From: Minisyncoccota bacterium
Lineage (GTDB): Bacteria; Patescibacteriota; Minisyncoccia; Phycocordibacterales; UBA1550
NCBI GenBank assembly: GCA_023229865.1
Contig: JALNYL010000003.1
Coordinates: 22,109 to 86,108, forward strand
DNA length: 64,000 nt
Direction of reading: 5' to 3'
In this document: piece after piece, positions 7,309-11,590 of the stretch
How positions within the stretch are numbered: the first letter of the stretch is position 1
Layout of the letters: each line of letters opens with the position of its first letter
Translations under genes and position numbers: made by a program
Notes under the pieces: model-generated
Database searches by the model: none
Seen by the model: the letters and a program-made list of their open reading frames with translations, nothing else
What the model was told of the DNA's origin: nothing

Positions 7309-7626
7309 ATGAATTTTGCAGTAATACAGACAGGTGGCAAGCAGTATAAAGTAGCAGCTGGCGAGACTCTCCTTATCGAGAAGCTTCCTGGCGAGCCAAA
7401 AGTAGGGGACAAGATCGTTTTTGATCAGGTTCTCCTCGTTAATGACGGCTCAAAAACTCTTATCGGTGCGCCAACCGTAGCAGGGGCAGCAGTTCATGCA
7501 ACCCTCGCAGAGGAAGGAAAGGGAAAGAAAGTTGTCGTTATCCGCTACCGCAACAAGTCACGCTACTTCAAGAAGAACGGCCATCGCCAGCCTTTTATGA
7601 AAGTAACGATCGACGCGATTAAGTAA
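7309..7626 (+). CDS. rplU: 50S ribosomal protein L21
   Basis: MNFAVIQTGGKQYKV... canonical L21; not followed by rpmA here. Confidence 0.95.
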   Translation: MNFAVIQTGGKQYKVAAGETLLIEKLPGEPKVGDKIVFDQVLLVNDGSKTLIGAPTVAGAAVHATLAEEGKGKKVVVIRYRNKSRYFKKNGHRQPFMKVTIDAIK

Positions 7627-7641
7627 CTCTCAAAAAGAAAA

Positions 7642-7664
7642 ACCCGCAGTAATGCGGGTTTTTT
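7642..7664. terminator. bidirectional terminator (rplU on + strand / Cys-rich operon on - strand)
   Basis: stem acccgca/tgcgggt, loop gtaa, flanked by A-run and T-run. Confidence 0.7.
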
Positions 7665-7685: not shown

Positions 7686-8003
7686 TCATTCTGTAATCGT
7701 ACTCCCACCCGGACCACGATAGACTGAACTGAAGCCATCGGCCCCGTGTAGTGGGTCAGGATTTTCTTCGGGCGCTTTTGGCCCCACACGGTCGTAGAAT
7801 GCCCTGGCCTTTTCGCTGGTGGGTTCCGATATCGTGCGCAGTGCCGCTTGAGTATCGCCACAGTCTGACCACGCGTGGTGTTTGAGTGGAACCCCACATC
7901 CGTGTGGACATGATGGCTCTTCTTTTGTTTTTCCACGGAGCATCTTCTTAAGTTTCCATATTAAATACGAAACCTGTGAAGCGAGCCATTTAAGACTAAG
8001 CAT
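7686..8003 (-). CDS. small Cys/His-rich protein, paralog C of tandem family (CPHGCGVPL...C)
   Basis: start at Met 8003 has AAAGGAGAATAACC-ATG RBS 4 nt after paralog B stop; motif EEPSCPHGCGVPLKHH...DCG; G/P-rich tail similar to paralog A. Confidence 0.6.
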   Translation of the reverse strand: MLSLKWLASQVSYLIWKLKKMLRGKTKEEPSCPHGCGVPLKHHAWSDCGDTQAALRTISEPTSEKARAFYDRVGPKAPEENPDPLHGADGFSSVYRGPGGSTITE

Positions 8004-8337
8004 GGTTATTCTCCTTTGTTGGGACATTTACCTCAAACCTTATTGAGCATTCGATATTTACCAAGGCGGGGTCGCCATTTTCAAGATGCACATACTTTAC
8101 ACCACGAAGGTGGTCTGTACTCAGGGGCTTACCACAGTACCCACATCCGCAAACTTTTGGTGCTTGTGAATTTTTGTTATCCAGTTCCTTGCCATAAGCC
8201 GACTCGAAGCAGCTGATGTTCATCACGACCATCACACCTTCGATTTCTTTTTCTCGAACTTGGTTCGGGTCATCGTTCAATGGACAGCCACACTTACATC
8301 CGCAGAGTTTTGGTTCCTGAGAATCTTTCTCATCCAT
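7996..8337 (-). CDS. small Cys-rich protein with two CxCxCGxPL...C modules (paralog B)
   Basis: KLCGCKCGCPL...ISCFES and KVCGCGYCGKPL...IECSIRFE repeats; AAGGAGAACGAG-ATG RBS identical to paralog A. Confidence 0.65.
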   Translation of the reverse strand: MDEKDSQEPKLCGCKCGCPLNDDPNQVREKEIEGVMVVMNISCFESAYGKELDNKNSQAPKVCGCGYCGKPLSTDHLRGVKYVHLENGDPALVNIECSIRFEVNVPTKENNHA

Positions 8338-8355
8338 CTCGTTCTCCTTACTGAA

Positions 8356-8598
8356 TCAATCAACTGGTCCACTGTTTTTCGGTCCATGGACACCAGGGCC
8401 ACCGATGGGGTGTTCATCGATAAATTTGCCTATTTTTTCAAAGTAGCAATCCTCGTTGACAAGCACTCGCCTTTCGCCAATCTTCATCCAGTGCGGACCA
8501 AGGGGGTCATTCATTTCAAGCGGCTTCCCGCATCCACAGCCACAAAGCTCCGCAGGTGCTGGTTCCCTGTTCAGAAACTCAGTTACGCTCATTGCCAT
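8356..8598 (-). CDS. small Cys-rich protein (paralog A; ELCGCGCGKPL...DCYFE)
   Basis: 80 aa, strong RBS AAGGAGAACGAG 0 nt before ATG; conserved module shared with B and C; 70 nt downstream of recR on same strand. Confidence 0.65.
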   Translation of the reverse strand: MAMSVTEFLNREPAPAELCGCGCGKPLEMNDPLGPHWMKIGERRVLVNEDCYFEKIGKFIDEHPIGGPGVHGPKNSGPVD

Positions 8599-8668
8599 CT
8601 CGTTCTCCTTTTGGTTTATTTAGGTACAAAAACTTCCTACAAAAAGATTAACACAACAGGGGAGTAAA

Positions 8669-9280
8669 TCAACCTCTATTCTTGAGTGCGTGACGAAGTG
8701 TGTCACCGTCTGAATACTCGAGCTCGGTCCCTGTCGAAAGCCCGCGCCCAAGGGTTGTGATTGTAATACCGAGTTGTTCTGCAATAGGCTTGAGCGCTTT
8801 GATGACATAATCGCGCGTAAAGTCTCCTTCGGGATTTACTGAGAGGGCAAGGATGATTTCCGTGAGGCCATCAGCTGCATCGCCTTCGATACGTGCGAGG
8901 AGTTCATTGATGCGAATCTTTGAAGCAGGGTCTCGCTCGAGGACGGGGATTGTCCCGCCGAGAATAAAATATCTTCCCGCATAGCTTCCACTGCGACGGA
9001 CACTTTCAAAATCAGTGTCTTTCTCTACTACCATAAGTGTCGCACTGTCAGCATCGTCGATACACACAGAGCAAAGTCTGCCTTCGCCCGCGCGAGGGTA
9101 AAAACGATAACACCCCTCACACTGCACAATCTCACGTTTGAGCGCTGCGATTTCACGCGCGAGTGAGTCTACGAAATGCGGATCTTGTGCAAGGAGAAAA
9201 TACACAAAGCGTTTTGCTTGGCGTGTCCCGATCCCGGGAAACTTCATAAATAATTGTGCGAGAGAATCAATTGAACTCAT
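8669..9280 (-). CDS. recR: recombination protein RecR
   Basis: HhH (FPGIGTRQAKRF), C4 zinc finger (CEGC...CSVC), Toprim domain. Confidence 0.95.
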   Translation of the reverse strand: MSSIDSLAQLFMKFPGIGTRQAKRFVYFLLAQDPHFVDSLAREIAALKREIVQCEGCYRFYPRAGEGRLCSVCIDDADSATLMVVEKDTDFESVRRSGSYAGRYFILGGTIPVLERDPASKIRINELLARIEGDAADGLTEIILALSVNPEGDFTRDYVIKALKPIAEQLGITITTLGRGLSTGTELEYSDGDTLRHALKNRG

Positions 9281-9282
9281 TG

Positions 9283-10704
9283 TTAAAATTCATCAAAATT
9301 ACCCCCCGCCTGACGTGAAGCTCCGCCGTAATCAGCGTGTTTATCAATAGACATAAAGGTCGACTTCTCTTCGTCGAAATAGAGCTCCACCATACCCACG
9401 GGACCATTGCGATGCTTCTCGATGATGATCTCGGCGATATTGGTCTTCTCAAGATTTTTATCCATCTTGTCTTCACGGTGAATAAACATAACCACGTCCG
9501 CATCCTGTTCAATAGAACCCGAGTCACGGAGGTCGGAGAGTTTTGGCTTGCCACCACGAGATTCGAGCGCACGAGAAAGCTGCGAGAGGGCGATCACCGG
9601 CACATCGAGATCCTTCGCAAGCCCCTTAAGAGAGTGCGAAATTTCTGTCACCTGGTTCACCATCGAGTCATAGTGCTTCGACGTATTCATAAGCTGGAGG
9701 TAGTCGACAATGATGAGCCCGAGTCCGTGCTCACTCTTGAGTTTACGCGCAGCTGAACGCATCTTCATAATGGTGTTACCAGACTGGTCATCGATGAAAA
9801 TAGGCGCTTTTGAAAGTCGGTCGAGTGAACCACGAAGTTTGTCGAAGTCTTCATCGAGCGAGAGCTTCCCCGTGCGGAGCTTCCATGCGTTCACACGAGC
9901 CTCAGCAGAAAGCATACGGTCCACGAGCTGCTGTGTGTTCATTTCGAGAGAGAAAATACCAACGGGGATATTGTGCATTGTCGCAGCCTGGCGCGCGATA
10001 TCAAGTGCGAGCGTCGTCTTACCCATCGAAGGACGCGCCGCGAGAATGATGAGGTCAGACTTCTGAAAACCAGAGAGGAGGTTGTCGAGGGCTGCGAAAC
10101 CAGAGGGGACACCGCGAAGCTCGGCGCCATCTTTGTGCATCTTGTCGAGACGCTCCCATGCTTCCTCGAGCGTATCTTTGAGGCTCACAAACTTTTTAGA
10201 AACACTTGAGTTGGTTACCGAATAAATTTTCTTCTCTGCTTCGTCGAGCACGCCTTCAATTTCTTGGGCTTCGTCATAGCCGAGCTCTGATATGTGCGCA
10301 GCTGCATCGATAAGTGCACGCAAAATATATTTACGCTGAATAATCTCCGCGTAGTGTTTTGCATTTGTCGAAGAGGGGACAGAGTCGACAAGCTCCGCGA
10401 GATAACTGCCTCCCCCGACGTTGTCAAACTTGCCACGCTCTTTGAGGCGCGTAGACACTGAGAGAAGATCGATGGGCTCATGACGTGTGTGGAGCTCGAG
10501 CATCGCATCAAAAAGCATGCGATGCTTATCCACATAAAAAGTCTCGCGTGTCACCATATCCGCGATGTCATACATCCCGTCAGGGCGAAGCATGAGGGAG
10601 CCGAGAAGTGCTTTTTCTGAATCGATATTTTGTGGAGGGATGCGGAGCTCGCGTGATTTGAATTGTCGCTCGGGAGTGTTTGATTTGCTGGTCATACGGG
10701 TCAT
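9283..10704 (-). CDS. dnaB: replicative DNA helicase DnaB (start chosen at MTRMTSK; ORF extends to 10800)
   Basis: N-terminal domain (LRIPPQNIDSEKALLG), Walker A ARPSMGKT, Walker B IIVDYLQLM, Arg finger region; 2 nt from recR. Confidence 0.93.
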   Translation of the reverse strand: MTRMTSKSNTPERQFKSRELRIPPQNIDSEKALLGSLMLRPDGMYDIADMVTRETFYVDKHRMLFDAMLELHTRHEPIDLLSVSTRLKERGKFDNVGGGSYLAELVDSVPSSTNAKHYAEIIQRKYILRALIDAAAHISELGYDEAQEIEGVLDEAEKKIYSVTNSSVSKKFVSLKDTLEEAWERLDKMHKDGAELRGVPSGFAALDNLLSGFQKSDLIILAARPSMGKTTLALDIARQAATMHNIPVGIFSLEMNTQQLVDRMLSAEARVNAWKLRTGKLSLDEDFDKLRGSLDRLSKAPIFIDDQSGNTIMKMRSAARKLKSEHGLGLIIVDYLQLMNTSKHYDSMVNQVTEISHSLKGLAKDLDVPVIALSQLSRALESRGGKPKLSDLRDSGSIEQDADVVMFIHREDKMDKNLEKTNIAEIIIEKHRNGPVGMVELYFDEEKSTFMSIDKHADYGGASRQAGGNFDEF

Positions 10705-10897
10705 TCTAACATGTGTGCAAGACAGACGGAACTTGACGCTGTGGGCAGAACAGTGGAAAAACAGTGGAAACAAAATTAGACCACAAAAAATATTTTCCAA
10801 AAAACAAAGTACTTGAAATTATTGACTTTTTATACGATTTGAGAGAGTATGAGCGTAGCGATTTCTGGTCTTTAACTCACATACGGAGGATATTAAA

Positions 10898-11239
10898 ATG
10901 GCACAAGACGGAGCTATGCCCCAAAGTACGGGGCTCATGATTCATCCCGCAGAGGCGCGCCTTGCAATCTTACACAAGGCTGCACAGCAAGAAAAGGGTA
11001 CGGTGAAGCACGGGAGGAAAATCCTTCTCCACAGAGAACCCCCGCACAACCTCAGGGACGTCGTCGAGAGACAAACCCCCTTGGTGTCGTTTCGAGATAT
11101 CGGGATGAACAGCATTCACGAGCTCGTTCACACTTTCAAACAGCTCGATGAAGCAGTAGGAAGGGGCGACAACGACAGTATCAAGAGAAATCTTGCACGC
11201 CTCCTCAATATCAACGAAGCTCACATCGATCTCACCTGA
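10898..11239 (+). CDS. hypothetical protein (113 aa)
   Basis: GGAGG RBS 7 nt upstream; locally higher GC than neighbours; no recognisable domain. Confidence 0.5.
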   Translation: MAQDGAMPQSTGLMIHPAEARLAILHKAAQQEKGTVKHGRKILLHREPPHNLRDVVERQTPLVSFRDIGMNSIHELVHTFKQLDEAVGRGDNDSIKRNLARLLNINEAHIDLT

Positions 11240-11271
11240 GACCATTGCGAGCAGTCAAAGAAAGGGACGAA

Positions 11272-11556
11272 ATGACGAACAGGAAAATCCTAATATGCGT
11301 CATCGGGAGTTTGGGGATAGAATATCTCCTTTCGAGAAGGGACTTGGGAGCACCCACCATACTGCTCCGAGACTACGGGGCGCTCAGTCTCCCTGAACTG
11401 AAACTCGATTTTCTGAAACCAGAGCAAACTCCTCGGCAGCAACTGCCAAAACTTCGCCAAGCACACACAAAGCGTGTACAAGACAAGTTCAGGCGTCAGA
11501 GCCTCAACCCAAGAAAAGTGAGACACCCTCGCGGGAATTTCAAAGCCCGCTATTAA
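11272..11556 (+). CDS. hypothetical basic protein (94 aa from ATG; ORF track starts at TTG 11245)
   Basis: AAAGGGA RBS before ATG 11272; Arg/Lys-rich C-terminus; follows previous ORF by <35 nt. Confidence 0.42.
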   Translation: MTNRKILICVIGSLGIEYLLSRRDLGAPTILLRDYGALSLPELKLDFLKPEQTPRQQLPKLRQAHTKRVQDKFRRQSLNPRKVRHPRGNFKARY

Positions 11557-11562
11557 CAAAAT

Positions 11563-11590
11563 GCCGCACAACTGTGCGGCATTTTTTTTT
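11563..11590. terminator. bidirectional terminator between + strand small ORFs and cysS
   Basis: stem gccgcac/gtgcggc, loop aact, followed by T9; A-run upstream. Confidence 0.6.

What the first reader, a model, noticed from the sequence alone, without database searches (positions are those of the whole stretch)
7686..8598. Tandem array of three paralogous small Cys-rich proteins (CxCxCGxPL module) co-directional with dnaB-recR
Three consecutive minus-strand genes (80, 113 and 105 aa) carry four copies of a ~40-aa module. The consensus is [PA][EK][LV]CGC[GK]CG[KC]PL, then ~25 variable residues, then a hydrophobic run and D/S-C-[FY]-[FI]-E. Examples are ELCGCGCGKPL...VLVNEDCYFE, KLCGCKCGCPL...VVMNISCFES, KVCGCGYCGKPL...LVNIECSIRFE, and the degenerate SCPHGCGVPL...DCG. 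All three share the same strong RBS context (AAGGAGAA...ATG) and are packed 4-18 nt apart. Conservation at the protein level but not of flanking DNA argues for real coding paralogs. The spacing (three clustered Cys plus one distal Cys next to aromatic residues) is reminiscent of YHS/TRASH/FCS-type metal-binding ribbons. It lacks their second CxxxC, so it may be an undescribed zinc-ribbon-like family. Its position directly after the replicative helicase and RecR hints at a nucleic-acid or metal-handling role.
Basis: partly seen in the sequence, partly recalled or inferred. Interest (0 to 1): 0.7.

Follow-up and report, generated by a model that had tools for sequence, protein, structure and literature searches.

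The report
Uncharacterised small zinc-finger protein gene array
Three real, adjacent small genes in a Patescibacteria (candidate phyla radiation) genome belong to a small-protein family absent from the curated libraries searched, whose sequence pattern indicates a single four-ligand metal (probably zinc) site; what the proteins do is still unknown.

Summary
Three minus-strand genes, A (8356-8598), B (7996-8337) and C (7686-8003), carry three clear copies of a ~40-aa Cys module and one degenerate knuckle. They are real genes under purifying selection. Nothing in Pfam, NCBIfam, PHROGs, PADLOC or the PDB matches.

An exhaustive profile search found about 57 small (58-105 aa), mostly acidic relatives. 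Those that carry a taxon label are mainly Patescibacteria, plus one archaeal and one alphaproteobacterial label. Across the family the ligand count stays at four:
- CxCxC knuckles go with a non-ligand residue (N/R/S/T) three positions before the distal Cys.
- CxxC knuckles go with Cys or His at that position.

So the window's "C3+1" pattern is a ligand-migrated form of an ordinary CxxC...[C/H]xxC finger. It is not a TRASH/YHS/FCS or YacG relative.

Gene A is the conserved core. It has its own promoter-like block and lies downstream of recR only in one lineage (Yonathbacteria-like). B and C are a hypervariable, module-shuffling appendage.

Distant members sit in varied contexts, with a weak excess of DNA-enzyme neighbours (recR, gyrB-gyrA, a UvrD/AddA-like helicase, ligA) and a conserved operon with a PRTase-GNAT fusion.

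Most likely it is a one-metal finger that acts as a protein-binding adaptor. Function is inferred, not shown.

The parts
8356..8598 (-). Gene A (80 aa), the conserved core member of the family. Ligands are C19, C21, C23 and C51. The N-terminus MA.T..EF and the tail HPIGG.G.HGPK..GP.D are conserved.
   Evidence: 10 homologues at 54-98% identity; C19, C21, C23 and C51 invariant; family search; dN/dS 0.08 versus L039
8437..8547 (-). Module in A (residues 18-54): knuckle LCGCGCGKPLE, a beta-hairpin, then N-E-D-C-Y-F-E at the start of a helix.
   Evidence: AlphaFold2 models, (pLDDT 68 and 72; bridge residues 18 and 26, strands 36-40 and 43-47, helix 49-62; ligand tabulation)
7996..8337 (-). Gene B (113 aa), an in-frame fusion of two single-module B-type paralogues. 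In relatives the B gene is 65-66 aa with one module.
   Evidence: L001 B is 65 aa; P0013 and P0062 are 66 aa; BLASTP against A, 2e-7 and 2e-5
8200..8307 (-). B module 1 (residues 11-46): knuckle C12-G-C14-K-C16-G-C18, with N40..C43-F-E.
   Evidence: domain E 9e-7; dN/dS 0.14 versus L001
8032..8154 (-). B module 2 (residues 62-102): knuckle C63-G-C65-G-Y-C68-G-K-P-L, with N94..C97. A near-identical module sits inside a C-type protein in L006.
   Evidence: domain E 3.6e-4
7686..8003 (-). Gene C (105 aa), a fast-evolving composite of an N-terminal KWLAS helix, a mini-knuckle, a helix (S.KA.AFYD) and a Gly-rich tail. Its start overlaps B's stop by 8 nt.
   Evidence: alignment with C-type proteins and fusions; dN 0.46-0.70
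7857..7913 (-). C mini-knuckle (residues 31-49): C32-P-H34-G-C36-G-V-P-L-K-H-H-A-W-S-D-C48. This is a degenerate copy of the module's knuckle with no hairpin.
   Evidence: E 0.011, profile positions 14-45 only; P0075 has CQCGCGTPL at this position
7689..7766 (-). C tail ENPDPLHGADGFSSVYRGPGGSTITE. In relatives the same tail is fused to the end of A-type modules (P0010, P0030, P0078).
8599..8668 (-). recR-A intergenic region with a conserved block (..GTG.TA.TCT.. then TTTTGTAC/TTAAA, then AAGGAG). Probably gene A's own promoter plus ribosome-binding site.
   Evidence: alignment of 10 loci whose synonymous sites are otherwise saturated; the consensus promoter scan did not call it
7638..7663 (-). 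Intrinsic terminator hairpin (11-bp stem followed by a T-run) that closes the A-B-C unit. It lies between C and the convergent rplU.
8669..9280 (-). recR, the upstream co-directional neighbour (context).
   Evidence: Pfam labels on the syntenic genes
9283..10701 (-). dnaB, upstream of recR (context). The likely start is MTSKSN...; the mechanical ORF extends to 10800.
   Evidence: (DnaB/DnaB_C Pfam labels in syntenic loci)
7309..7626 (+). rplU (ribosomal protein L21), the convergent downstream neighbour (context).

Best explanation
A, B and C encode members of a family of small (about 60-100 aa), mostly acidic proteins that has no entry in the curated libraries searched. The family is built around one four-ligand metal site, most probably a structural zinc.

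**How the module is built.** In the window's version, three ligands come from an N-terminal knuckle (C-x-C-x-C-G-x-P-L). The fourth is the Cys of a D-C-Y-F motif at the N-terminus of a helix, reached after a beta-hairpin. This is a ligand-migrated derivative of the family's ordinary CxxC...[C/H]xxC arrangement, on a treble-clef-like topology.

**Proposed role (inferred).** The folded finger, the conserved acidic helix (DCYFE..G..I[DE].HPIG) and a conserved, probably disordered C-terminal tail are proposed to act as a protein-binding adaptor or regulatory subunit. A nucleic-acid binder or a metal store is less likely.

**The three genes.**
- Gene A is the conserved, purifying-selected core gene. 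It has its own promoter-like element just downstream of recR.
- B and C are lineage-specific, translationally coupled paralogues that evolve by module duplication, fusion and swapping.
- They probably work together with A-type modules, because their parts are found fused to each other in relatives.

**Shown:** gene reality, family membership, conservation of four ligands, lack of any known-family match, and locus variability.

**Inferred:** zinc as the metal, the fold details, and the adaptor role.
For: **The ligand count is conserved (59 sequences).**
- All 37 sequences scored with a 3- or 4-Cys knuckle have N/R/S/T three residues before the distal Cys.
- Of the 22 scored with a 2-Cys knuckle, 21 have C (14) or H (7) there.
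- The apparent exception, P0067, really has three Cys (CGCPQNC).
- Nine further members fit the rule.
- The His variants favour zinc.

**Fold.** Two independent AlphaFold2 runs (11- and 59-sequence alignments) give the same topology: knuckle, hairpin, helix.

**Family extent.** An exhaustive HMM search of 1.84 billion representatives gave 62 hits at E<=1e-3. The 59 aligned family sequences run 61-110 aa. Their median pI is 5.3, and 47 of 59 are acidic.

**No known family.** Pfam, NCBIfam, PHROGs and PADLOC gave no consistent or significant family match. The PDB profile search has a best E of 0.22.

**Selection.** Gene A has dN/dS 0.08. Its dN is 0.17 against L001, compared with 0.047 for recR.

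**Rosetta-stone fusions.**
- P0075 is the C head fused to A.
- P0010, P0030 and P0078 are A fused to the C tail.
- The L006 ORF is C head + B module 2 + C tail.

**Coupling to partner enzymes elsewhere.**
- A family member sits 3-4 nt upstream of a PRTase-GNAT fusion in four diverged loci.
- A member sits 2 nt after gyrB and before gyrA in an archaeal contig.
- Members lie 94 nt after a UvrD/PDDEXK helicase-nuclease and 70 nt after recR.
Against: - No metal-binding measurement exists. In Haloferax, only 9 of 14 purified predicted C(P)XCG fingers actually held zinc, and AlphaFold2 could not tell which (PMC11241148).
- Model confidence is moderate (pLDDT 68-72), and I could not inspect the Cys geometry.
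- The covariation is perfect but may reflect only two or three evolutionary transitions.
- No partner is identified for the window's proteins.
- Genomic contexts of distant members are heterogeneous (ribosomal operons, HSP20/PrsW, PFOR, tRNA/CCA enzyme). The adaptor idea therefore rests on acidity, conserved tails, fusions and a few tight operons.
- Gene A is truncated in one Yonathbacteria genome (L022/P0091), so it is dispensable there.
Confidence: 0.55

Rival explanations
1. YacG-like regulator of DNA-processing enzymes. The finger and its conserved C-terminal tail dock onto RecR and/or DnaB here, and onto gyrase or a helicase-nuclease in other lineages, and modulate their activity.
For: - Gene A lies directly downstream of dnaB-recR throughout the Yonathbacteria-like clade.
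- Distant members lie as gyrB-X-gyrA with a 2-nt gap, 94 nt after a UvrD+PDDEXK helicase, and convergent with ligA.
- That gives 4 of about 14 independent contexts with a DNA enzyme as immediate neighbour. My own binomial estimate is p about 0.04, post hoc.
- RecR and GyrB both carry Toprim domains (Pfam labels).
- By analogy, YacG is a small zinc finger that represses gyrase by occluding its DNA-binding site (PMC4083091).
Against: - hhalign of the family profile against E. coli YacG gives probability 0.7%, and only 9 knuckle columns align.
- Gene A seems to have its own promoter.
- Most contexts do not involve DNA enzymes.
- Each adjacency is a single evolutionary event.
Confidence: 0.18
2. 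Partner, substrate or antidote of a GNAT acetyltransferase: a two-component system in which the small finger regulates, or is acetylated by, the enzyme.
For: - In four diverged loci (L041, L042, L048, L049) a family member sits 3-4 nt upstream of a 310-320 aa PRTase-like + GNAT fusion that is 34-52% identical between loci.
- In L013/L014 a 154-aa GNAT lies immediately upstream of a member.
- An IS1595 transposase flanks the pair in L041.
Against: - No GNAT gene lies within about 5 kb of A/B/C in the syntenic loci with Pfam labels.
- In L013 terminator-like hairpins separate the GNAT gene from the finger gene.
- The L013 GNAT is only generically similar to the fused GNAT (E 7e-4).
- The association concerns the CxxC...CxxC subfamily, not the window's CxCxC subfamily.
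Confidence: 0.08
3. Ribosome-associated zinc micro-protein, analogous to small zinc-finger proteins seen on archaeal 30S subunits or to zinc-type ribosomal proteins.
For: - Members lie next to ribosomal protein genes in three contexts: convergent with rplU here, between rpsJ and rplC in L013, and just after rplJ-rplL in L052.
- The top, non-significant Foldseek hit (E 1.3) is 9fhl_C, a small zinc-finger protein in a Saccharolobus 30S structure. The PDB profile search also lists it (E 3.5).
Against: - All matches are far from significant.
- The family is acidic (median pI 5.3), unlike ribosomal proteins.
- In L013 the gene is bracketed by terminator-like hairpins and looks monocistronic.
- Ribosomal protein genes are a large share of small Patescibacteria genomes, so some adjacency is expected.
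Confidence: 0.07
4. Metal-buffering or redox-switch protein, metallothionein-like or with an Hsp33/RsrA-like zinc-thiolate switch. On this reading the paralogue array expands metal capacity.
For: - B has 9 Cys in 113 aa, and knuckles such as CGCKCGC are very Cys-dense.
- Multi-module proteins recur (B; P0028 with three modules).
Against: - Cys content is only 3-8%.
- Exactly four ligands per module are conserved, together with a hydrophobic core, a hairpin and a helix.
- Many non-ligand residues are conserved (D50, Y52, F53, HPIG). This pattern fits a structural site.
- No metallothionein or Hsp33 HMM match.
Confidence: 0.06
5. Ribosomally made peptide precursors or secreted Cys-rich peptides, with the conserved C-terminal Gly-rich tails as core or recognition sequences.
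For: - Small tandem Cys-rich paralogues.
- A hypervariable B-C region.
- Conserved tails ending in [IVL]-x-[DE].
Against: - No modifying enzyme, protease or transporter lies next to the genes in any of about 14 contexts.
- The conserved part is a folded domain.
- No signal peptide or leader-like region.
- dN/dS is well below 1.
Confidence: 0.03
6. Frame artefacts, or a non-coding region that happens to be open.
For: A 135-aa antisense ORF (8260-8667, +) is also open, and L001 has a similar one.
Against: - Homologues with saturated synonymous but low non-synonymous divergence.
- Strong ribosome-binding sites.
- A family of about 57 representatives.
- The antisense ORF is broken up in L005 and L007.
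Confidence: 0.01

Closest known systems
[quoted passage not shown] Haloferax volcanii HVO_2753, HVO_0758; PMC11241148, PMC10716476, PMC6562870)
   Same: - Size class (about 60-100 aa).
- A single small metal-binding domain, usually encoded by a stand-alone gene.
- A CPxCG-type first knuckle in some distant members (e.g. P0029 CPVCGE, P0051 CPVCGK).
- The best PDB profile hit, though not significant, is a 'small CPxCG-related zinc finger protein' (8q5b_A, E 0.22).
   Different: - That group is a heterogeneous category, not a homologous family, and no significant sequence or structure match exists.
- The window's proteins have a single CxCxC knuckle plus one distal Cys instead of two C(P)XCG motifs.
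- The family has its own conserved MA.TL.EF N-terminus, DCYFE..G..I.xHPIG helix and tail.
TRASH / YHS / zf-FCS / MYM treble-clef fingers
   Same: - A CxxCG-like knuckle, then a beta-hairpin, then a Cys followed by aromatic residues at the start of a helix.
   Different: - No HMM hit to any of these families even at E<=10.
- The second half-site is [C/H/N]-x2-C, not C-x3-C.
- The structural scores are at noise level.
YacG, the zinc-finger DNA gyrase inhibitor (PMC4083091)
   Same: - A small acidic protein with one zinc finger followed by a tail.
- One family member is encoded between gyrB and gyrA (L044). The window's gene A follows recR, which carries a Toprim domain as GyrB does.
   Different: - Profile comparison probability is 0.7%.
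- YacG's second half-site is FCSxxC.
- There is no evidence of gyrase or RecR binding.
- Adjacency to DNA enzymes is seen in only about 4 of 14 contexts.

Membership tests
TRASH / YHS / zf-FCS / MYM-type fingers | Significant match to the family HMMs (Pfam) | tested here: not met
   hmmscan of A, B and C against Pfam-A at E<=10 gave 0 families. The 59 family members scanned at E<=1 show none of these families among the 25 listed of 49 families hit; the best listed are LIM and DUF7573, 4 members each, E>=0.0027.
TRASH / YHS / zf-FCS / MYM-type fingers | Ligand pattern C-x2-C ... C-x3-C (pattern recalled from my own knowledge of these families) | tested here: not met
   The second half-site is [N/R/S/T]-x2-C in the window's class and [C/H]-x2-C in the others. 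C-x3-C is never seen.
YacG (DNA gyrase inhibitor) | Sequence or profile similarity to YacG | tested here: not met
   hhalign of alignment A2 against E. coli K-12 YacG (sequence taken from NC_000913.3): probability 0.7%, 9 aligned columns. No YacG chain appears in the PDB profile hits.
YacG (DNA gyrase inhibitor) | Binds GyrB and inhibits gyrase | not testable with these tools
   The only lead is gene adjacency: gyrB-X-gyrA in L044.
C(P)XCG zinc-finger micro-proteins (Haloferax category) | [quoted passage not shown] | tested here: not met
   A has one CxCxCG knuckle plus a single distal Cys, and B has the same arrangement twice. Some distant members (P0029, P0051) have one CPxCG. The PDB profile search gives E 0.22 to 8q5b_A, which is not significant.
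Treble-clef / zinc-ribbon fold group (structural class, not a homologous family) | Zinc knuckle, then beta-hairpin, then helix, with ligands from the knuckle and the helix N-terminus | tested here: inconclusive
Four-ligand structural metal site (generic zinc finger) | Four conserved Cys/His ligands, with compensation when one is lost | tested here: met
   There is a perfect association between a third knuckle Cys and loss of the C/H three residues before the distal Cys (58 of 59 as scored; the exception is a scoring artefact). P0050 alone lacks the distal Cys. Nine more members conform.
Four-ligand structural metal site (generic zinc finger) | Metal actually bound, and its identity | not testable with these tools
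   This needs ICP-MS, a PAR assay or native MS. PMC11241148 shows that prediction alone is unreliable (9 of 14 bound zinc).
Metallothionein | Very high Cys content and no conserved folded core (feature recalled from my own knowledge) | tested here: not met
   Cys content is 4 of 80 in A, 9 of 113 in B and 3 of 105 in C. Hairpin, helix and non-ligand residues are conserved.
RiPP precursor | Adjacent maturation enzymes or transporter | tested here: not met
   None appears in any neighbourhood examined.
Phage or anti-phage defence protein families | Match in PHROGs or PADLOC, or presence on viral contigs | tested here: not met
   PHROGs best E is 0.022-0.39 with scattered families. PADLOC gives none. 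Two IMG/VR scans found no relatives. tblastn against 50,697 phage records gave one chance-level hit (E 0.08) in the first search and none in the second. BFVD Foldseek best E is 0.29.

The most novel reading that the evidence does not exclude
The family is a previously unrecognised class of tail-docking zinc-finger regulators of DNA-processing enzymes in ultra-small prokaryotes (CPR bacteria and possibly archaea; one contig looks archaeal), working in the manner of YacG but not homologous to it.

- Gene A would bind RecR and/or DnaB.
- The L044 homologue would bind gyrase.
- The L051 homologue would bind an AddA/UvrD-like helicase-nuclease.
- The hypervariable, recombining B-C appendage would diversify partner specificity, or would counter mobile-element or phage-encoded antagonists.
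Probability: 0.12. Interest if true: 0.7.

Novelty: new variant of a known kind. Interest (0 to 1): 0.4.

Why it matters
**Size of the unknown.** Small proteins of CPR bacteria are largely unannotated. This one defines a coherent family of about 57 clusters at 50% identity. It has no Pfam, NCBIfam or PDB counterpart.

**A metal-site rearrangement.** The family shows a metal ligand relocating from one half-site to the other (CxxC...CxxC to CxCxC...NxxC) while the ligand total stays at four.

**A defined target for experiments.** Gene A is under strong purifying selection next to the replication and recombination genes of a minimal genome. Relatives are translationally coupled to gyrase subunits or to a PRTase-GNAT enzyme. 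If it proves to be an accessory factor of such enzymes, it would add a regulator class for organisms that lack many canonical ones.

**If not.** It would then be one more domain-of-unknown-function entry: useful for annotation but not surprising.

Tried and rejected
1. **Known-family assignment.** Pfam, NCBIfam, PHROGs and PADLOC scans of A, B and C, and a Pfam scan of 59 relatives, gave nothing consistent.
2. **PDB by sequence and profile.** Best E is 0.18-0.22, all chance-level.
3. **Fold searches.**
   - Foldseek against the PDB: best E 1.3.
   - Foldseek against BFVD: best E 0.29.
   - None is usable. The afdb50 library was unavailable.
4. **YacG homology.** Rejected by hhalign.
5. **Phage origin.** No relatives in IMG/VR or in GenBank phages.
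6. **The search for related loci with family alignments on genome contigs.** This failed because no stretch was conserved enough. I replaced it with degenerate DNA patterns. Eleven of 16 genome hits to the CGCGCGxPLE pattern were chance matches.
7. **Antisense ORF 8260-8667 as the real gene.** Rejected. It is not maintained in L005 or L007, and substitutions follow the A reading frame.
8. **Ribosomal-operon membership of the L013 homologue.** Weakened, because terminator-like hairpins lie on both sides of the gene.
9. **RimI-type identity of the L013 GNAT.** Not supported. Only weak ArsN2 and AAC(6') similarities appear, all below cut-off.
10. **RNA element in the window.** No Rfam family and no tRNA anywhere in the 64 kb.
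11. **Consensus promoter scan.** It did not call a promoter in the recR-A spacer. The promoter reading rests on cross-locus conservation only.
Full report
**1. What is in the sequence**

The window region 7686-8598 holds three consecutive minus-strand ORFs:
- A, 8356-8598, 80 aa.
- B, 7996-8337, 113 aa.
- C, 7686-8003, 105 aa from the ATG that follows AAGGAG.

They lie downstream of, and co-directional with, dnaB (about 9283-10701) and recR (8669-9280). They are convergent with rplU (7309-7626). A strong hairpin terminator (7638-7663) closes the unit.

Each gene has an AAGGAGAA ribosome-binding site. A and B share an identical 16-nt AAGGAGAACGAGATGG. The A-B spacer is 18 nt. B's conserved C-terminal TKENNHA therefore encodes C's ribosome-binding site and start codon.

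A profile built only from relatives of A detects exactly these genes in the six-frame translation of the whole 64-kb window:
- A: E 2e-33.
- B: two domains, 9e-7 and 3.6e-4.
- C: 0.011, covering only the knuckle.
- Next best hit: E 0.45.

BLASTP of A against B gives 2e-7 and 2e-5. The one qualification is that the fourth 'module' in C is a short degenerate knuckle (C32-x-H34-x-C36-G-x-P-L...H42/H43...C48) with no hairpin.

**2. They are genes**

Gene A has 10 close homologues at 54-98% identity. One is labelled Candidatus Paceibacterota. C19, C21, C23 and C51 are invariant, as are NDPLGP, NEDC.F and the tail HPIGG..GPK..P.D.

The order recR, small Cys gene(s), then convergent rplU recurs in L001, L005, L006, L007-9, L010-12, L019, L022, L031, L033, L037 and L039. 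The named records are Candidatus Yonathbacteria, 'Minisyncoccia' and one labelled Saccharibacteria. All are Patescibacteria (CPR).

Selection estimates:

| Comparison | dS | dN | dN/dS |
|---|---|---|---|
| A vs L001 | saturated | 0.17 | not computable |
| recR vs L001 | 1.64 | 0.047 | 0.029 |
| L21 vs L001 | 0.63 | 0.045 | 0.072 |
| A vs L039 | 0.13 | 0.011 | 0.08 |
| B module 1 vs L001 | 0.93 | 0.128 | 0.14 |
| C (vs L001 / L039) | 3.2 / 1.95 | 0.70 / 0.46 | about 0.2 |

An antisense ORF (8260-8667) is open here and in L001 but is broken up in other loci. I treat it as a by-product.

**3. The locus is a variable cassette around a conserved core**

Contents of the recR-rplU slot differ between relatives:
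- L001: A + B (65 aa, one module) + C (75 aa).
- L039: A + a 66-aa B identical to P0062 + a different C.
- L005: only A, with a C-type tail fused on (P0010).
- L006: no A, but one ORF that reads C head + a module about 90% identical to the window's B module 2 + C tail.
- L007/L008: A + an unrelated coiled-coil protein.
- L022: A truncated at residue 38 (P0091, seen on three contigs).

The window's B is an in-frame fusion of two single-module B-type genes. Its second half begins ...DNKNSQAPKVCGCG, which resembles the N-terminus MNKNDSRAPQICGCG of P0062.

Other fusions occur. P0075 is C head + A. P0010, P0030 and P0078 are A + C tail. By Rosetta-stone logic, the A/B modules and the C head and tail act together.

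Against the nearest relative (L039, a 784-kb contig), gene A plus its upstream spacer is 92-100% identical in DNA (dS 0.13). The flanking genes are far more diverged: recR dS 1.78, dnaB 1.11 and rmuC 1.36. The B-C region is not alignable by blastn. This pattern indicates a recombination tract carrying A, next to a hypervariable B-C segment.

The 70-nt recR-A spacer contains a block conserved across loci whose synonymous sites are saturated. The likeliest reading is that A has its own promoter. That loosens the operon link to recR.

**4. What the module is**

No Pfam, NCBIfam, PHROGs or PADLOC model matches A, B or C.

An exhaustive HMM search of 1.84 billion representative proteins with the A alignment returned 62 hits at E<=1e-3. 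Three of these (P0020, P0034, P0058) are repeat proteins I judged spurious, and P0049 (2878 aa) was not examined. The rest are proteins of 44-249 aa, nearly all between 58 and 124 aa.

Their consensus is MA.TL.EF...LCGCGCG.PLE...G..VN.DCYFE..G.EI..HPIG, often ending in a basic Arg-rich or GP..[ILV]D tail. The B family is recovered by the A profile (P0062, E 1.5e-4).

The key result is the ligand tabulation:
- Sequences scored with a three-Cys knuckle (CxCxC; one has four) have a non-ligand residue three positions before the distal Cys: N 31, R 3, S 2, T 1.
- Sequences scored with a two-Cys knuckle (CxxC and variants) have Cys (14) or His (7) there.
- The single apparent exception (P0067, CGCPQNC) really has three knuckle Cys.
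- Only P0050 lacks the distal Cys.
- Nine further members found later obey the rule.

The site therefore always has four ligands. The window's 'C3 + 1' arrangement is a ligand-migrated derivative of a conventional CxxC...[C/H]xxC finger. The His variants argue for zinc or a similar metal.

Caveat: the classes may be clades, so the perfect association could rest on only a few evolutionary events.

Two AlphaFold2 runs (11- and 59-sequence alignments; pLDDT 68 and 72) agree on the topology. A knuckle spans residues 18-26, a beta-hairpin spans 36-47, and a helix spans 49-62 with C51 at its N-terminus. This is a treble-clef-like layout.

- Foldseek against the PDB: best E 1.3.
- Foldseek against BFVD: best E 0.29.

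Pfam scans of all 59 members give only scattered sub-threshold hits to assorted zinc fingers. The PDB profile search peaks at E 0.22, to a haloarchaeal 'small CPxCG-related zinc finger protein'.

**5. Where else the family occurs, and next to what**

All true hits among GTDB species representatives to the CGCGCGxPLE pattern were Patescibacteria. Other members carry the labels 'MAG: bacterium', 'uncultured archaeon' and Alphaproteobacteria. One contig (L044, 38% GC) carries what I read by eye as an aIF2-gamma fragment and so looks archaeal.

About 14 independent contexts were seen:
- recR->A (this clade).
- tuf-rpsJ-GNAT->X->rplC, with X bracketed by terminator-like hairpins (L013).
- rplJ-rplL->X (L052).
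- gyrB-(2 nt)-X-gyrA (L044).
- A UvrD+PDDEXK helicase-nuclease ->X (L051).
- X convergent with ligA (L046).
- SPFH (Band 7) protein next to X, with ruvB one gene further (L045/L050; ruvB identified by eye).
- X-(3-4 nt)-PRTase-like+GNAT fusion in four diverged loci (L041, L042, L048, L049).
- Unrelated settings: PFOR, HSP20/PrsW, CCA enzyme/tRNA, and runs of small unknown ORFs.

DNA enzymes are immediate neighbours in 4 of about 14 contexts. I estimate about 1.4 would be expected by chance (binomial p about 0.04, post hoc). This is suggestive, not conclusive.

No relatives were found on viral contigs or in phage genomes.

**6. Most likely mechanism**

*Shown:*
- A conserved one-site, four-ligand small domain.
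- A mostly acidic family: median pI 5.3, 47 of 59 acidic; A pI 5.25, B 5.14.
- A conserved N-terminus.
- A conserved low-confidence (pLDDT about 50-60) tail.
- Fusions among A, B and C parts.
- Tight translational coupling to enzymes in some lineages.

*Inferred:*
- One structural zinc holds the knuckle against the helix.
- The acidic helix and the tail form a protein-binding surface.
- The proteins act as adaptors or regulatory subunits.

The acidity and low Cys fraction argue against generic nucleic-acid binding and against metallothionein-like storage. Which partner A binds is open. RecR or DnaB is the obvious candidate from position, and the gyrase and helicase contexts recall YacG (PMC4083091). 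But the family is not homologous to YacG (hhalign probability 0.7%).

Metal occupancy itself needs measurement. In Haloferax, only 9 of 14 purified predicted C(P)XCG fingers bound zinc (PMC11241148).

**7. Comparison with known families, and novelty**

*What it works like:* probably other one-domain zinc-finger micro-proteins of the treble-clef or zinc-ribbon class.

*What it is a member of:* none of the families tested.
- TRASH/YHS/FCS fails on both HMM match and ligand spacing.
- YacG fails on profile comparison.
- The C(P)XCG category fails on motif count for the window's proteins.
- Metallothionein, RiPP precursor, phage and defence families all fail.

I file it as a new variant (a new family) within a known kind.

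**8. Verdict**

Its 'undescribed zinc-finger-like family' reading is supported. Its specific TRASH/FCS analogy is not. Its recR-based functional hint is weak but not empty.

Interest is moderate (0.4). The case offers a clean, conserved, unannotated family with a ligand migration, an unusually dynamic locus and testable partner hypotheses. It offers no demonstrated function.

Noticed in passing
window 8358-8637 versus L039 (contig Ga0265297_10000014, 784 kb): Gene A and its upstream spacer are 92-100% identical in DNA to the closest relative (dS 0.13). Flanking genes are far more diverged: recR dS 1.78, dnaB 1.11, rmuC 1.36. The adjacent B-C region is not alignable. This looks like a recent recombination tract carrying A next to a hypervariable segment.
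   Followed up: partly
window 8599-8668 (recR-A spacer): A sequence block (..GTG.TA.TCT.. then TTTTGTAC/TTAAA) is conserved across 10 loci whose synonymous sites are otherwise saturated. It is probably a promoter or operator for A. The consensus promoter scan did not call it, and no Rfam family matches.
   Followed up: partly
L041 998-2306, L042 141-1430, L048 2460-3783, L049 53-1237: A conserved two-gene operon in 53-63% GC bacteria: a family member sits 3-4 nt upstream of a 310-320 aa fusion of a phosphoribosyltransferase-like domain and a GNAT acetyltransferase domain. The fusion proteins are 34-52% identical between loci. An IS1595 transposase lies next to the pair in L041.
   Followed up: partly
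L044 3861-8767: In a 38% GC contig that looks archaeal (I read an aIF2-gamma fragment at its end by eye), a family member sits 2 nt after gyrB and 120 nt before gyrA.
   Followed up: partly
L022 2868-3325 (Candidatus Yonathbacteria CG17): Gene A is truncated after residue 38 (P0091, seen on three contigs). It is followed by a 78-aa ORF with a CGCSCG knuckle but no distal Cys. This suggests decay of the locus in that lineage.
   Followed up: partly
window 8260-8667 (+): A 135-aa ORF lies antisense to A and part of B. L001 has a comparable 131-aa antisense ORF, but it is fragmented in L005 and L007. I judged it a by-product of codon composition.
   Followed up: yes
L007 5215-5556 and L008 1942-2232: In one relative the B-C position is occupied by an unrelated 96-113 aa protein that looks like a coiled coil and has no Cys module.
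   Followed up: no
window 10800-11589 (between dnaB and cysS): This spacer holds only short unannotated ORFs here. Relatives carry two or three Pfam-less genes (52-231 aa) on the opposite strand in the same place, so it is a second variable spot in the neighbourhood.
   Followed up: no
window 1-64000: No tRNA gene and no Rfam family at gathering threshold anywhere in the 64-kb window.
   Followed up: no
L019 (record titled 'uncultured Candidatus Saccharibacteria'): Its DnaB, RecR, L21 and RmuC are very similar to those of the Yonathbacteria-like loci and lie in the same gene order. The taxon label may therefore be unreliable.
   Followed up: no
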